Shown: in pieces, positions 33,001 through 42,000 of the stretch
Numbering within the stretch: position 1 is the first letter of the stretch
Layout of the letters: each line of letters opens with the position of its first letter
DNA from: Mytilus edulis
Lineage: Eukaryota
Reading direction: 5' to 3'
Assembly (NCBI RefSeq): GCF_963676685.1
Contig: NC_092345.1
Coordinates: 83,762,001-83,826,000 of the forward strand
Length of the DNA: 64,000 nt
Program-made: the position numbers

Positions 33001-36000
33001 ATGAGTCGTGCTTGGATATATAGAACCACTCTCTGTATAATGAGTCATGCTTGGATATATAGCAACACTTTGTGTAATGAGTCATGCTTGGCTGTATAGC
33101 ACCACTCTCTGTAATGAGTAATGCTTGGCTGTATAGCACCACTCTCTGTAATGAATCATGCTTGGCTATAAAGCATCAATCTACTGTGTAATTAATCATG
33201 CTTGGCTATATAGCACATCACTCTGTGTACTGTGTCATTTTGAAATAACATGAATAATGAAGAATTATTTCTTGTTCATTTAATGCAATCAACTAATGGT
33301 TCCTGATTTAAAAAGAAAAGACAAAATTATAAGTCAATGAGTGGTACTAGTATAACATTACTGTAAAACAAAGACAATGCCTTTAATTATTTTTTCAATG
33401 TTCAATTCATTTTGGAGAGAAAGTGTGTGTTATCTGAATATATTTTTGTGAGTGTTTATTAACGTTGGTTATTTTGAAGATCAAAATACAGATAATTTTT
33501 TTTACAGTAGAATTATCTATAAGTTATGAATAAATAGCATAACTTTGCACTATTAAAGATATTTAAATGTCAGTGTACGATCTATGGAAATTTTCGGGTA
33601 TCCACTCGTGGCAATTACTTAATAGTGTCATCGTAGACAATCAGAATAGAACGAGAACAATATAAATCTGTTTTTTTTCCAAAATACATTATAAAATTAG
33701 AAATTCTCCAGGACAAATATTTTGGATTTTTGTTTACTTTTTTCACTTCCAATATAAAAGTGTCGGTTATAATCCACAGACAGAGACTTTGGTTGTTCTA
33801 TTCCCACCTTTTTGGTATCTAAATATTGCATTAAAATTCCTGTACTACTAAGAATATGTAAGAAACAATTATAACTCTCAGCAATCACAAAACTATCCGA
33901 CTATGAAGTGACAATGTCTATTGGTCTAAAAGGGCAATGTTCATTAAATATAGCACCACTCTGCAATGAGTCATTATTGGCTATTATAGCACCACTCTGT
34001 GTAATGGTTCATGCTTGGCTATACACAGGCAAAATTTGCGTACACCTCAAACGAATTTATACATGAAACTCACGTGAAAATTTTTCATGTGAATTGAAAT
34101 TCGCATAAATCTGATGTAAAATATTTTGCATGAATTTCACGTGTATTTACACACACAAAATTTATATTTTTCATGATATTAAATAGATTTGAAATTCGGT
34201 GTTATTTGAATTACTCTATTTGAAAAATTCATGTGATTTTCATGGAAAATTCACATGAGTTTCACAAAAACTGATTTCATGTGAGTTTCACGTATAAGCT
34301 CGTTTGTGGTGAAATTCATGTGAATTTCACGTGAGATTCACATGAATTTAAATTCACGTGAAATTCATGTGAGTAAAATTTGCCTGTGTATAGCACCGCT
34401 CTGTGTAATGAGTCATTCTTGGCTATATAACACTACTCTGTGTAAGGAATCACGCTTTGCTTCATACCACTAATGTTTTAATGAGTCATACTCGGCCATA
34501 TAGCACCTCTCTGTGTTATGAGTCATGCTTGGCTATATAGCACTACTCTGTAATGAATCATGTTTGGCTTTATAGCACCGCTCTGTGTAATGGGTAATGC
34601 TTGGCTATATAGCACCACTCTGCAATGAGTAATTTTTTGGCTATTATAGCGCCACTCTGTGTAATGAGTCATGCTTGGCTTTATAGCACCAATCTGTGTT
34701 ATGAGTCTTGCTTGGCTTTATAGCACCGCTCTGTGTAATGAGTCATGCTTGGCTATATAGCACCACTCTGTGCAATGAGTCATTATTGGCTATTATAGTT
34801 CCGCTCTGTGTAATAAGACATGCTTGGCTTTATACAACCGCTCTGTGTAATGAGTCATGCTTGGCTGTATAGCACCACTCTGTGCATTGAGTCATTATTG
34901 CCTATTATAGCACCGCTCTGTGTAATGAGTCATGCTTGGCTTTATAGCACCACTCTGTGTAATAAGTCATGCTTGGCCATATGGCACCGCTCTGTGTAAT
35001 GAGTCATGATTGGCTTTATAGCACCGCTCTCTGTAATGAGTCATGCTTGGTTTTATAGCACCTATCTGTGTAATAAGTCATGCTTGGCTTTATAGCACCA
35101 CTCTGTGTAATGAGTCATGCTTGGCTTCATAGCATCACTCTGTGTAATGAGTCATGATTGGCTTTATAGCACCACTCTGTGTAATAAGTCATGCTTGGCT
35201 ATATAGCACCGCTCTCTGTACTGAGTCATGCTTGGCTTTAAAGCACCACTCTGTGTAATAAGTCATGCTTGGTTTTATAGCACCACTCTGTGTAATGAGT
35301 CATGCATGTCTTTATAGTACCAATCTTTTTAATGAGTCATACTTGGCTTTATAGCACCAATCTTTGTAATGAGTCATGCTTGGCTTTATAGCACCACTCT
35401 GTGTTATGAGTCATGCTTGGCTTTATAGCACCAATCTTTGTAATGAATCATGCTTGGTTTTATAGCACCACTCTGTGTAATGAGTCATGCTTGGCTTTAT
35501 AGAACCGCTCTTTGTAATGAGTCATGCTTGGCTTTATAGCACCACTCTGTGTAATGAGTCATGCTTGGCTTTATAGCACCAATCTTTGTAATGAATCATG
35601 CTTGGTTTTATAGCACCACTCTGTGTAATGAGTCATGCTTGGCTTTATAGCACCACTTTCTGTGTAATGAGTCGTGCTTGGAAATATAGAACCACTCTGT
35701 TTAATAAATCATGCTCGATTATATAGCACCCCTCTGTGTAATGAGTCGTGCTTGGATATATAGAACCACTCTCTGTATAATGAGTCATGCTTGGATATAT
35801 AGCAACACTTTGTGTAATGAGTCATGCTTGGCTGTATAGCACCACTCTCTGTAATGAGTAATGCTTGGCTGTATAGCACCACTCTCTGTAATGAATCATG
35901 CTTGGCTATAAAGCATCAATCTACTGTGTAATTAATCATGCTTGGCTATATAGCACATCACTCTGTGTACTGTGTCATTTTGAAATAACATGAATAATGA

Positions 36001-39000: not shown

Positions 39001-42000
39001 GTCATGCTTGGCTTTATAGAACCGCTCTTTGTAATGAGTCATGCTTGGCTTTATATCACCACTATGTGTAATGAGTCATGCTTGGCTTTATATCACCACT
39101 ATGTGTAATGAGTCATGCTTGGCTTTATAGCACCACTCTGTGTAATGAGTCATGCTTGGGTTTATAGCACCACTCTGTGTAATGAGTCATGCTTGGCTTT
39201 ATAGCATCAATCTTTGTAATGAGTCATGCTTGGCTTTTATAGCACCACTATGTGTAATGAGTCATGCTTGGCTTTATAGCACCACACCACTCTGTGTAAT
39301 ATGTCATTTTGAACACTTTATTATGTGTAGCAACATTGATATGAAAGACATTCAAATGATGAATATGTTTTTCTTCATTAAATGCAATCAATTTATGGTT
39401 CCCGATTTAAAAAGACAAAAATATAAGTCAATGATTGGTTATAGTATAACATTATTGTAAACAAAACCAATGCCTTTTATTATTTTTGTATGTTAATCCA
39501 TTTTGGAGAGAACGTGTGTTTTATCTGAATATATGTTTTATGAGTGTTTGTTAACCTTGGTTATTTTGAAGATAAGCTAGGCGATAAAAAGTAAAGATAA
39601 CTTTTCTTTTTTACAGTAGAATAATTTATAGTGTATGAATTATAATAGTATACATTTACATTGTTAAAGAATTTAAAATGTCCGTGTACGATCTATGGAA
39701 ATTTTCGGGTATCTATCGTTTTGACAATTGCTAAAGTGTCACCATGGAAAATCATTTTTTTCAAAATACATTTTAGAATTAGAAATTCTCCAGGACAAAT
39801 ATTTTGGATTTTTGTTTACTTTTTTCACTTCCAATATAAAAGTGTCGGTTATAATCCACAGACAGAGACTTTGGTTGTTCTATTCCCACCTTTTTGGTAT
39901 CTAAATATTGCATTAAAATTCCTGTACTACTAAGAATATGTAGGAAATAATTATAACTCTCAGCAATCACAAAACTATCCGACTGTGAAGTTACAATGTC
40001 CATTGGTCTAAAAGGGCAATGTTCATTGTTTATCTCTGGATTTCCAGTATAGATATTTAAAACTTTCCCTCCATCATCCAGCACGATGATTCTCCCTAAT
40101 AAATCGTTAGAGATAACATCTATAACAGCAATGTTACTGTTACTACTGGTAGTTACACGGACTGGTACACTAAATAACGGTCTGTTTTTGTTGTCAACTT
40201 CAAAAAGTTTTCTCCAACGCCCTGTTTGGTCCATTATGATCAGTTGTCCTGGTCCTTGAATTGGAAACCAACCCCCTTTCTCGGCTGCCCCTACTATAAC
40301 CTTCTCATCACGAGTTATGTGAACGGCAAGTGTAGCTAAAGGAGAGACACTGAAATTTGAATTCTGTACTTTTTGTTTATCAGGCTGTATGTACACGAGG
40401 TTGGACGATTCAAGAATTGATGCAAGAATTTCCCCATTCGAAAAAGACGACATATCTATCATGTCGAGTTTTACATTCGGCAGTACTTTGAGGGTATCGC
40501 CGTCAGGGATTGCCTTTTGTACTTGTCTTGATGTATCGTTATAAACCCAGAAAGATCCGTCGGGACAAGAAACAAGATCATTGACAGCCTCGGTGTCAAT
40601 TGTAAATTGAGTGACGACATGTAATTTTATGTCTTTTGAAATACTGTTTTCCAGCCTACCATGTTCAATGTTGGATAAGTCTCCCGGACAGAAGATTGGT
40701 ATATGTTGAAATGAAGTCTTCACGTTGACTTCAAAGGTTGGCTCCAATGATTCTGAGAAAGAGAATACCTCTTGAGCATTTTGTGTTTCCGTTAATCGCA
40801 CCAGTTCATCCCGTTTTTCTTTCAACGTCCTTTCTTTTCTCTTCGCCTCCCTTTCTTCTTTGGCAACTTGTTCTGTAAATGTTTTGAGACTCTGATCAAG
40901 TTCAGTAACAATTTGATTTGTTCGTTGCTTTATCTGTTCAACCAAAACTCTTTCAAAGTTAAAAACTTCTTGTTTAACCTTTTCATATGTAGATTGCTCA
41001 CATGTCTTTCTTTCCTCTAGCTTGTTCGTCGCTGCAATTAGGAATTTGATTTTCTTTCCGATAGTCTTCTGTTCATTTTTAATACTTTCAATACGATTTT
41101 CATATCCTTCGCTAATTTCTAACAAGTCGTGTTTCTTGTGGGTTTTAGCAACACATGTCGCGCACACAAGCTTGCCACAAGAATTGCAAAAAAGACAGGA
41201 GTTTTGTCCAGCATGTTTACTACATTTTAGCTTGGTAAAGTCTAGTTTATGTGGTTCAGTACCAGTCGATTTTTGTTTTCGACCAACATCCTTTATATTT
41301 ACAACGGTATGATCCTGAGCCGATGGCCATTTTGGATGGACTACATCTCGGCATCTTTGACACATGAAGCGTCCACAGTCAATGCACTTCCATTTCAGTT
41401 TACGATCATTTTCACAAATCTCACAAGTCAGTGCCGCCTGAATTTCCATTTTAACTGCTTTTTACTGATTGCTCAGTCGACATTTTGTTATTATTGATTA
41501 AATTTTGTTAAAGGAAATGTGAGATTTAAATTTCTGTGTAGACATGCAGATATATTAAGTACACAAACTTTCTTTTTTATCAGCGAAAACTGGCTAGTTC
41601 TTCAAATTCTTTTTAAAATGAGTACTAGTGTCTCTGGATATTTTCCAGAAAATTGTTTGGAAGAATATTGCATTGAAATTTAAGTAGGTTCGTTACCTAA
41701 TTTTAAAAGAAGTTAATAAACATTTTATTTATTTGTTTGGACTACATTTCATAAATGAGACCAGTGAACGTTTGATTAGTTTTGTAAAGATTGTATTGAT
41801 TGGTAAAACGTTTAATTTTATCCACCCTAATAAAAGAATCGATCTTCATTGTCAGCATGTTTATTTTTTTTACTAACTAAACCATTTTCACAAACCTCAA
41901 GTCTATTATATGTTAGGTCCAAGTAACATCTTATCCAGTCAGAGCATTTACCATCCAAGATCAGATGTATTCATTAAAACAAACACAGTTCATGTAGAAT

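What the first reader, a model, noticed from the sequence alone, without database searches (positions are those of the whole stretch)
33230..40027. Satellite-embedded orphan 3' ends of the TRIM-like gene with a gene-conversion-like identity pattern
Seen: the module [satellite - 3' flank - last 249 nt of CDS] occurs three times. Against the intact gene, the flank is clearly diverged with indels, yet the terminal ~163 coding nt of copy 1 are identical, and all 5 substitutions (one a stop) cluster in the remaining ~86 nt. Inference: an old tandem paralogue was cut down by satellite-associated deletion and then partly re-homogenised by conversion. Such fragments could serve as donor cassettes that vary the last propeller blades (the presumed ligand-binding end), a possible satellite-driven birth/death and diversification system for bivalve B-box/NHL genes.
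Basis: partly seen in the sequence, partly recalled or inferred. Interest (0 to 1): 0.65.

Follow-up and report, generated by a model that had tools for sequence, protein, structure and literature searches.

The report
Mussel gene fragment showing gene conversion
Beside a mussel TRIM-like gene, a decayed copy of its last 249 coding bases sits inside a satellite array, and a 166-base patch of that copy is still identical to the gene, most likely through ordinary gene conversion rather than a new diversification system.

Summary
A Mytilus B-box/coiled-coil/NHL-propeller gene (minus strand, CDS 39779-41449) abuts a 37-bp satellite. Two orphan copies of [satellite, 3' flank, last 249 nt of CDS] lie further along the satellite.

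The two orphans are not independent. They belong to a 2,740-bp tandem duplication with 1 mismatch in 2,745 bp, and both of its breakpoints lie in satellite. There is therefore only one gene/fragment comparison.

In that comparison the flank differs at 38 of 390 aligned sites plus 30 gap events, and the distal 85 coding nt at 5 sites. A 166-nt patch (39777-39942) between them has no differences. About 11 would be expected for a neutral fragment of the flank's age (P about 1e-5).

The single difference between the two orphan copies lies inside this patch. One copy carries the gene's derived Arg and the other the family-ancestral Gly.

Best reading: a partial tandem duplication, neutral decay, recurrent short-tract gene conversion, a MITE insertion, then satellite-mediated unequal crossing-over. 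A polishing artefact cannot be excluded.

The donor-cassette idea has no support. The fragment-specific changes (C501, I483, stop at 489) are absent from both close full-length relatives, and the direction of transfer is unknown. This is a clear instance of known processes, of modest interest.

The parts
31184..33238 (.). 37-bp satellite array 1 ('GGCTATA' monomer type)
   Evidence: TRF. Monomer consensus and diagnostic sites.
33239..33696 (-). Copy 1 of the diverged homologue of the gene's 3' flank (probable 3' UTR). It includes a 29-nt indel next to the T-run.
   Evidence: 38 substitutions in 390 aligned sites plus 30 gap events against 39286-39754. The satellite/flank junction is shared with the gene.
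33697..33945 (-). Orphan CDS fragment copy 1: stop codon plus the last 82 codons (residues 475-556), with Q489 changed to a stop
   Evidence: There are 5 substitutions, all at offsets 164-222, and no indels.
33946..34023 (.). Two degenerate satellite monomers joined directly to the CDS breakpoint
   Evidence: Read from the alignment.
34024..34388 (.). MITE-like insert in the satellite, with terminal inverted repeats, an internal palindromic 11-nt motif and TA on both sides. The second copy is at 36764-37128.
   Evidence: (pair I3, 27 nt, 85%). The TA duplication was read against the monomer consensus.
34389..35978 (.). Satellite array 2, a chimera. 34389-35645 equals the first 1,257 nt of array 3, and 35646-35978 equals the last 333 nt of array 1.
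32906..38390 (.). Near-perfect tandem duplication with a 2,740-bp unit: 2,745 bp compared, one mismatch (33765 against 36505)
35979..36436 (-). Diverged 3' flank homologue, copy 2
36437..36685 (-). Orphan CDS fragment copy 2. It matches copy 1 except at 36505, which gives the ancestral Gly at residue 535.
37129..39285 (.). Satellite array 3 ('GGCTTTA' monomer type), abutting the gene's 3' flank
39286..39778 (-). 3' flank of the intact gene. It is a probable 3' UTR, with two AATAAA motifs on the sense strand.
   Evidence: Read.
39777..39942 (-). 166-nt patch identical between the gene and fragment copy 1 (residues 503-556, the stop codon and 2 nt beyond): the inferred conversion tract
39779..41449 (-). 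Intact single-ORF gene of 556 aa: two B-boxes, a long coiled coil and a six-bladed NHL-type propeller

Best explanation
The region records five ordinary steps.

1. Partial tandem duplication (inferred). An ancestral layout of [37-bp satellite, 3' UTR, TRIM-like gene] was partly duplicated, with one breakpoint inside the satellite and the other inside the CDS at 40027/40028. This left a promoterless copy of the last 249 coding nt joined straight to satellite, on the 3' side of the intact gene.
2. Neutral decay of the fragment (shown by counts). It has a nonsense change, two missense changes and two synonymous changes in its distal 85 nt. Its UTR homologue has about 10% substitutions and many indels.
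3. Short-tract non-allelic gene conversion (inferred). Conversion between the gene and the fragment erased all differences in a patch of at most 166 nt, covering residues 503-556 (the last five predicted strands of the propeller). It happened at least twice. The latest event postdates the youngest duplication, because only one of the two new fragment copies carries the gene's derived Arg535.
4. MITE insertion (shown). A TA-flanked MITE landed in the satellite next to the fragment.
5. Unequal crossing-over (shown). Misaligned satellite arrays on either side of the fragment recombined. This duplicated a 2,740-bp unit and produced the chimeric middle array.

The fragment has no demonstrated function. 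The direction of conversion is not determined.
For: Structure:
- The CDS fragment ends at 33945 and is followed at once by satellite monomers. The satellite/flank junction is shared by all modules.
- The duplication has 1 mismatch in 2,745 bp and its edges lie in satellite.
- Array 2 carries the first 21 diagnostic sites of array 3, then two sites of the array 1 type.

Divergence:
- Flank: 38 of 390 sites plus 30 gap events. Distal CDS: 5 of 85. Patch: 0 of 166.
- For a neutral fragment of the flank's age, the expected numbers are 5.7 distal (5 observed, P = 0.49) and 11.2 proximal (0 observed, P = 1.4e-5).
- Fisher test of the patch against the rest gives 2.6e-6. In 0 of 100,000 permutations was there a run of 166 or more.

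Selection alone does not explain the patch. If both copies were functional for part of the time, P(0) is 0.011 to 1.3e-4, depending on the length of the pseudogene phase.

Shared derived states:
- Arg535 and Ser548 of the window's gene are derived. Gly and Ala occupy these sites in P0002, P0003, P0004, P0005 and P0008, and in 46 of 63 family members each.
- Both fragment copies have Ser548. Copy 1 has Arg535 and copy 2 has Gly535.
- Without exchange, the single post-duplication mutation would have to hit this site and this base by chance: 2 to 6 of 8,235 possibilities, or 2.4e-4 to 7.3e-4.

The fragment is closest to its neighbour gene: 95.2% identity to P0001, 90.5% to P0002 and 77.4% to P0003 over 84 aa.
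Against: - Only one independent gene/fragment pair exists, and the partition into patch and rest was chosen after looking.
- The 3' edge of the patch lies 3 nt beyond the stop codon. That is where a selection-based explanation would also place it.
- Using synonymous sites only, the whole 249 nt is not significantly under-diverged (4.7 expected, 2 observed, P = 0.155). The proximal part is only marginally so (3.2 expected, 0 observed, P = 0.04).
- No reads or second haplotype were available. Short-read polishing across three near-identical targets could create both the perfect patch and the Arg/Gly difference, and the perfect 2.74-kb duplication could be an assembly error.
- The enrichment of gene-derived changes in the patch is not significant (2 of 5 in 54 of 556 residues, P = 0.077).
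- P0002 may be an allele, an orthologue or a paralogue. Its DNA could not be seen.
Confidence: 0.6

Rival explanations
1. Selection only, with no conversion. The fragment is the remnant of a second functional copy, either a tandem paralogue or a divergent allele captured by unequal exchange between homologues. It stayed under purifying selection until it was truncated recently. On this view the coding part looks young only because it was constrained.
For: - Identity rises within 3 nt of the stop codon.
- There are no indels in 249 coding nt, against 30 gap events in the flank.
- The synonymous-site test over the whole fragment is not significant (P = 0.155).
Against: - The distal 85 nt carry 3 non-synonymous changes, including a stop, against 2 synonymous ones. 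That implies a long pseudogene phase.
- The proximal patch should then hold 4.5 to 8.9 differences but holds 0 (P = 0.011 to 1.3e-4).
- This reading does not explain why the one mismatch between the two orphan copies is the Arg/Gly site.
- No second close full-length paralogue was found. A C-terminal search returned 2 proteins among 8 candidates, both already known.
Confidence: 0.12
2. Assembly or polishing artefact. The perfect 166-nt patch, the Arg/Gly difference, the 2,740-bp duplication, or several of these, were produced by mis-mapped reads during consensus polishing or by a false tandem duplication in the assembler.
For: - A 2,745-bp repeat with one mismatch inside satellite DNA is a typical place for assembly error.
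- The patch length of 166 nt is about one short read. This is my own inference.
- The window contains a 146-N gap elsewhere, at 14944-15089.
Against: - The chimeric array 2 has clean, in-register breakpoints, as expected of a real unequal exchange.
- Fragment-specific differences 1 to 60 nt beyond the patch edge were not erased.
- The old flank divergence and the CDS/satellite junction cannot be produced by polishing.
Confidence: 0.15
3. Functional donor cassette. The orphan fragments are kept as templates that feed new variants into the last propeller blades of the expressed gene.
For: - The window's gene carries two derived residues (Arg535, Ser548) at positions that are Gly and Ala in 46 of 63 relatives. 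Both lie in the patch shared with the pseudogene fragment.
- That is what transfer from fragment to gene would look like.
- At least two exchange events are implied.
Against: - There is only one effective donor sequence. The two copies differ at 1 of 2,745 nt.
- Its private changes C501, I483 and the stop at 489 occur in 0 of 2 close full-length relatives.
- The enrichment of derived changes in the patch is not significant (P = 0.077).
- Transfer from gene to fragment explains the same data.
- The window holds no other family member with this layout.
Confidence: 0.07
4. Capture by a transposable element. The satellite and its flank form a satellite-carrying Helentron-type non-autonomous element (HINE), which picked up the gene's 3' end by reading through its own end and re-inserted nearby.
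For: - Bivalve satellite-like arrays are often carried by HINEs, which insert in T-rich sites and can capture genes (passages of PMC7492417).
- The flank homology ends at an oligo-T run, 39755-39761.
Against: - No subterminal inverted repeat was found between the left flank of array 1 and either right flank. Only scattered 10-12-nt matches appeared.
- A 29-nt indel sits at the supposed element end.
- Capture would give the flank and the CDS the same age, which does not fit the counts.
- There is no further copy of the flank in the 64-kb window.
Confidence: 0.05

Closest known systems
Non-allelic (interlocus) gene conversion between a gene and a neighbouring pseudogene or partial duplicate; CYP21A2/CYP21A1P and GBA/GBAP1 in humans are recalled examples, not checked here
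   Same: - A short patch of identity lies inside otherwise diverged duplicated sequence.
- The partner is a tandem, non-functional copy.
- Exchange appears to be recurrent.
   Different: - The partner here is only an 82-codon 3' stub embedded in satellite DNA.
- The direction and any phenotypic effect are unknown.
- The evidence comes from one haplotype only.
Chicken immunoglobulin pseudo-V donor arrays (PMC10917233; search listing and start of abstract seen)
   Same: Promoterless gene fragments lie beside an expressed gene, and sequence is transferred by conversion.
   Different: - The chicken system is somatic, AID-driven and one-directional, and draws on many diverse donors.
- Here there is one donor sequence in two near-identical copies.
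- There is no evidence of direction, of somatic activity or of donor variants in expressed genes.
Satellite-carrying Helentron elements (HINE) of the Pacific oyster (PMC7492417; passages read)
   Same: A short euchromatic satellite-like array in a bivalve lies next to a gene, and its non-repetitive flank ends at an oligo-T run.
   Different: - The monomer is 37 bp, whereas that study screened monomers of 100-500 bp.
- No subterminal inverted repeats were found.
- Copy number in the genome could not be tested.
TRIM-NHL proteins (TRIM2, TRIM3, Brat, Lin41/TRIM71)
   Same: - B-box zinc fingers.
- A long coiled coil and a six-bladed propeller.
- The best structural matches are the TRIM2 and TRIM3 NHL domains, 7b2r and 7qrw, with target-normalised TM-score 0.75.
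   Different: - Pfam finds no RING domain, and the first zinc module is an ANCHR-like B-box.
- The Pfam NHL repeat model does not reach threshold on this protein.
- Sequence identity to the solved NHL domains is 13-15%.
Pseudogene-rich, presence/absence-variable expanded gene families of Mytilus (PMC10138031; passages read)
   Same: Truncated and degenerate copies lie beside functional members of a mussel gene family.
   Different: - That work concerns CRP-I peptides and attributes the diversity mainly to gene presence/absence variation.
- It mentions gene conversion only as an earlier hypothesis.

Membership tests
TRIM (tripartite motif) proteins | N-terminal RING finger | tested here: not met
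   The Pfam scan found zf-B_box (2.7e-12) and ANCHR-like_BBOX (1.3e-7). FYVE was below its cut-off, and there was no RING model.
TRIM (tripartite motif) proteins | B-box zinc finger(s) followed by a coiled coil | tested here: met
   - B-box matches at residues 9-48 and 73-111.
- 16 invariant Cys/His columns in 63 relatives.
- A predicted helix at residues 112-221.
NHL-repeat beta-propeller | Six-bladed propeller with the NHL fold | tested here: met
   - The AlphaFold2 model has mean pLDDT 88.8 and 24 strands between residues 278 and 553.
- The top Foldseek PDB matches are the TRIM2/TRIM3 NHL domains (E 7e-14, target TM-score 0.75).
NHL-repeat beta-propeller | Match to the Pfam NHL repeat model (PF01436) | tested here: not met
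   There was no PF01436 match on P0001 at E up to 0.1. Relatives P0004 and P0007 carry it in the precomputed annotation.
Gene-conversion tract | A patch of identity bounded on both sides by diverged paralogous sequence, longer than chance allows | tested here: met
   - 0 differences in 166 nt, between 5 of 85 on one side and 2 of 24 plus 38 of 390 on the other.
- P = 1.4e-5 and 2.6e-6, and 0 of 100,000 permutations.
Gene-conversion tract | Paralogues share derived or polymorphic states (concerted evolution) | tested here: inconclusive
   - Ser548 is shared by the gene and both fragments.
- Arg535 is shared by the gene and copy 1 only, and copy 2 keeps the ancestral Gly.
- This rests on two sites and on protein-level outgroups only.
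Gene-conversion tract | Exchange seen across haplotypes or populations, and confirmed by reads | not testable with these tools
   No mussel genome, reads or second haplotype could be reached.
Unequal crossing-over between tandem repeats | Head-to-tail duplicated unit with both breakpoints in the same repeat family, and a chimeric array at the junction | tested here: met
   - The identity block is 32906-35650 against 35646-38390, with 1 mismatch.
- Array 2 is the start of array 3 followed by the end of array 1.
Helentron non-autonomous element (HINE) | Subterminal inverted repeats in the left and right modules, and a 3' palindrome | tested here: not met
   - Only scattered 10-12-nt inverted matches were found, none subterminal.
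- The hairpins near the flank ends are weak (about -10 to -12 kcal/mol).
- The feature list comes from passages of PMC7492417. Its supplementary tables could not be seen.
Helentron non-autonomous element (HINE) | Many dispersed copies with the same flanks | not testable with these tools
   No host genome was available. There is no further copy in the window.
MITE of the TA-target type | Terminal inverted repeats and a TA target-site duplication | tested here: met
   - Inverted pair I3 spans 34018-34044 and 34368-34394.
- TA on both sides restores the monomer consensus.
Donor-cassette diversification system (chicken pseudo-V type) | Several different donors, and donor variants present in expressed genes | tested here: not met
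   - The two copies differ at 1 nt.
- C501, I483 and the stop at 489 are present in 0 of 2 close full-length relatives.

The most novel reading that the evidence does not exclude
The satellite-embedded stub is a germline donor. As a neutral sequence it gathers changes that selection would not allow to arise in the gene, and short-tract conversion then writes them into the last blade of the NHL propeller.

On this reading the window's allele acquired Arg535 and Ser548 from the stub, at positions that are Gly and Ala in 46 of 63 relatives. The flanking satellite arrays multiply or delete such stubs by unequal crossing-over. If so, each mussel haplotype would carry a different set of C-terminal templates for its TRIM-like genes.
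Probability: 0.08. Interest if true: 0.6.

Novelty: new member of a known kind. Interest (0 to 1): 0.3.

Why it matters
This is a compact, well-dated example of three textbook processes acting within 9 kb beside a member of a very large bivalve gene family: partial duplication, short-tract non-allelic conversion, and satellite-mediated unequal exchange. The family has 2,170 representatives at E up to 0.001.

It is useful as a caution for annotation and variant calling in mussel genomes. A 166-nt perfect paralogous patch will attract mis-mapped reads.

It is also a concrete locus where the direction and rate of gene/pseudogene exchange in Mytilus could be measured. It does not by itself reveal a new mechanism.

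Tried and rejected
- **Retrocopy origin of the fragment.** Rejected. The fragment's flank joins the satellite at the same point and with the same sequence as the gene's flank, and there is no poly(A) tail.
- **HINE/Helentron carrier.** No subterminal inverted repeats were found. Genome copy number could not be tested.
- **Short predicted proteins matching the fragment.** The 67-aa open stretch was searched against proteins of 36-118 aa. No candidate shared three words with it.
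- **Full-length proteins sharing the C-terminus.** A search of residues 474-556 gave 2 proteins among 8 candidates, P0002 and P0003, both already known. No paralogue with a swapped C-terminus was seen.
- **Literature.**
  - The 28-nt monomer string appears in no paper of the searchable library.
  - Searches on Mytilus satellites, bivalve TRIM/NHL expansion and mollusc pseudogene-donor conversion listed no paper describing this locus or layout. That is not proof that none exists.
  - Supplementary tables were closed. The Cg_HINE sequences of PMC7492417 could therefore not be compared.
- **RNA features.** Rfam and tRNA scans of 28000-46000 found nothing.
- **Other copies in the window.** There are no other copies of the gene, the flank or the MITE.
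- **Collections.** No related mussel DNA was fetched.

Full report
**What is there**

The window is AT-rich (about 30-38% G+C). Its one large open frame in this region is a 556-codon ORF on the minus strand, 39779-41449.

- Pfam finds a B-box and an ANCHR-like B-box, and no RING.
- The nearest proteins are P0002, an unnamed database protein 98% identical, and P0003, 'TRIM33' of Mytilus coruscus, 87% identical. These are 2 of the 6 proteins with E up to 0.001 among 7,382 candidates. I infer that the window comes from a Mytilus species other than M. coruscus.
- The family is very large: 2,170 representatives at E up to 0.001 and 162 at up to 1e-30.

For the structure prediction I aligned 63 sequences:
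- the window's protein;
- P0002, P0004 and P0005;
- 59 of the 150 representatives listed, picked by hand for near full-length matches. The other 91, mostly shorter or partial, were left out.

AlphaFold2 on this alignment gave mean pLDDT 88.8. The model shows a helix at residues 112-221 and 24 strands between residues 278 and 553, which is six four-stranded blades. The best PDB matches are the NHL domains of TRIM2 and TRIM3 (E about 1e-13, target TM-score 0.75, 13-14% identity).

The last 82 codons therefore cover 7 of the 24 strands, three of blade 5 and all of blade 6. Nothing here shows that this end binds a ligand.

**Checking the observation**

- Satellite: TRF reports the 37-bp satellite as three arrays, 31184-33238, 34389-35978 and 37129-39285.
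- Matches: blastn of the gene region against the window finds gene 39755-40027 again at 33672-33945 (97.1%) and 36412-36685 (96.7%). It finds the flank 39355-39754 again at 80.7% with 25 gap openings.
- Coding differences: anchored on the stop codons (39779, 33697, 36437), copy 1 is identical to the gene for offsets 0-163. It differs at offsets 164 (Leu503, synonymous), 169 (Y501C), 206 (Q489 to stop), 213 (Val486, synonymous) and 222 (M483I). Homology stops after offset 248. Copy 2 adds R535G at offset 68.
- Flank: a global alignment gives 38 substitutions in 390 aligned sites and 30 gap events. The 24 nt after the stop carry 2 substitutions, a 1-nt indel and a 29-nt indel.

First, copies 1 and 2 are not independent.
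- At an offset of 2,740 nt, 32906-35650 equals 35646-38390 except at one position, 33765 against 36505. That position is the Arg/Gly site.
- Both edges of this duplication lie in satellite.
- Array 2 is a chimera. Its first 1,257 nt equal the start of array 3 and its last 333 nt equal the end of array 1. The diagnostic monomer variant switches from GGCTTTA to GGCTATA accordingly.
- This is the expected product of unequal crossing-over between the arrays on either side of the fragment.

Second, the fragment's broken end is joined directly to satellite monomers. The 365 bp that follow (34024-34388, again at 36764-37128) form a MITE-like insert with terminal inverted repeats and TA on both sides.

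**How the fragment arose**

The satellite/flank junction is the same in all modules, and there is no poly(A) tail. The copy was therefore made at the DNA level and is not a retrocopy.

A single tandem duplication of the segment running from a point in the satellite to CDS position 40027 yields the observed order: truncated copy, then satellite, then intact gene, with a CDS/satellite junction. I cannot tell the two apart.

**Is there a conversion-like pattern?**

I took the flank's 9.7% as the neutral divergence. I let the fragment evolve freely and constrained the gene (omega 0.25).

| Segment | Expected differences | Observed | P |
|---|---|---|---|
| Distal 85 nt | 5.7 | 5 | 0.49 |
| Proximal 164 nt | 11.2 | 0 | 1.4e-5 |

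- The distal part does not differ from the flank (Fisher 0.30).
- The 166-nt patch differs from everything else (Fisher 2.6e-6).
- In 0 of 100,000 permutations did 77 differences over 663 columns leave an identical run of 166 or more; the longest run seen was 126.
- Within the 249 nt alone, P(terminal run of 164 or more) = 0.0087 and P(any run of 164 or more) = 0.025.

The main rival is selection, with both copies functional until late.
- On synonymous sites alone it is not rejected for the whole fragment (4.7 expected, 2 observed, P = 0.155). It is only marginally rejected for the patch (P = 0.04).
- However, the distal part carries 3 non-synonymous changes, including a stop, against 2 synonymous ones. 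That implies a long pseudogene phase.
- With that phase at 0.2 to 0.9 of the total time, P(0 in the patch) is 0.011 to 1.3e-4.

**The Arg/Gly site**

The window's protein and P0002 differ at 11 of 556 positions. Polarised with P0003, 5 changes are derived in the window's gene and 6 in P0002.

Two of the five, Arg535 and Ser548, lie in the patch (P = 0.077). They replace Gly and Ala, which are present in P0002, P0003, P0004, P0005 and P0008, and in 46 of 63 aligned relatives each.

Both fragment copies have Ser548. Copy 1 has Arg535 and copy 2 has Gly535. This is the only mismatch in 2,745 bp. Without exchange, it would have to fall by chance on one of 2 to 6 out of 8,235 possible changes (2.4e-4 to 7.3e-4).

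The simplest reading is at least two exchanges in the same short tract, the later one after the 2.74-kb duplication. Either direction fits the data.

**Donor-cassette idea**

- The fragment-private states C501, I483 and the stop at 489 are in 0 of 2 close full-length relatives.
- The fragment is closest to its neighbour gene: 95.2% identity to P0001, 90.5% to P0002 and 77.4% to P0003 for copy 1.
- No short protein matches the fragment's open stretch.
- No full-length protein with a different body shares this C-terminus (2 proteins among 8 candidates).
- Only one effective donor exists.

The idea is not excluded, but nothing supports it.

**Transposable-element rival**

Passages of PMC7492417 describe oyster satellite-like arrays carried by Helentron non-autonomous elements. 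These have subterminal inverted repeats, a 3' palindrome and oligo-T insertion sites.

The flank homology here does end at an oligo-T run. I found no subterminal inverted repeats, only scattered 10-12-nt matches. Capture by such an element would also give the flank and the CDS the same age. Genome-wide copy number could not be tested.

**What stayed open**

- No mussel DNA beyond the window could be reached.
- The members of P0002's cluster could not be listed.
- There are no reads, so a polishing or assembly artefact remains possible.
- Supplementary files of papers were closed.
- P0002 begins nine residues upstream of the window's ORF. I built no joined or edited gene model, and searched only with the uninterrupted ORF and uninterrupted pieces of the window.

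**Verdict**

This is a clear new instance of known processes, and interest is modest.

Noticed in passing
window 41450-41476, minus strand: P0002 starts nine residues upstream (MSTAQSAVK) of the window's first Met. In the window, the corresponding upstream ATG opens only a 10-codon frame (M S T E Q S V K S S, then a stop), because of a 7-nt length difference. This allele would therefore have to start at MEIQ, as the M. coruscus model does, behind a short upstream reading frame. It may affect expression of this allele.
   Followed up: partly
window 34024-34388 and 36764-37128: A 365-bp MITE-like element lies inside the satellite. It has terminal inverted repeats beginning CACAGGCAAAATTT, many internal GTGAAATTCAC-type palindromes, and TA on both sides. 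There is no other copy in the window.
   Followed up: partly
window 12135-13256, minus strand: A 373-codon open frame matches the reverse transcriptase model RVT_1 (E 2.5e-12). It is probably part of a non-LTR retrotransposon.
   Followed up: partly
window 18261-18953, plus strand: A 230-codon open frame ends in a cytidylyltransferase-like motif (PF01467, E 1.3e-7). It is probably an exon of a CoA-synthase-type gene.
   Followed up: partly
window 45657-45956 and 53946-54346: Two short arrays of 146-147-bp repeats have TRF consensus units that look alike by eye; both contain AACCATGAAAATGAG.TCAAGGTCA. They may be a dispersed element that carries tandem repeats.
   Followed up: no
window 21097-21457: A cluster of 26-, 40-, 67- and 80-bp tandem repeats is built on a CCCTATC..AAGGGA motif.
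   Followed up: no
   Followed up: no
window 31184-33238 compared with 37129-39285: The satellite arrays on the two sides of the fragment have become distinct monomer subtypes (GGCTATA against GGCTTTA). Mean identity to their own consensus is 90.5% and 94.7%, which indicates local homogenisation within each array.
   Followed up: partly
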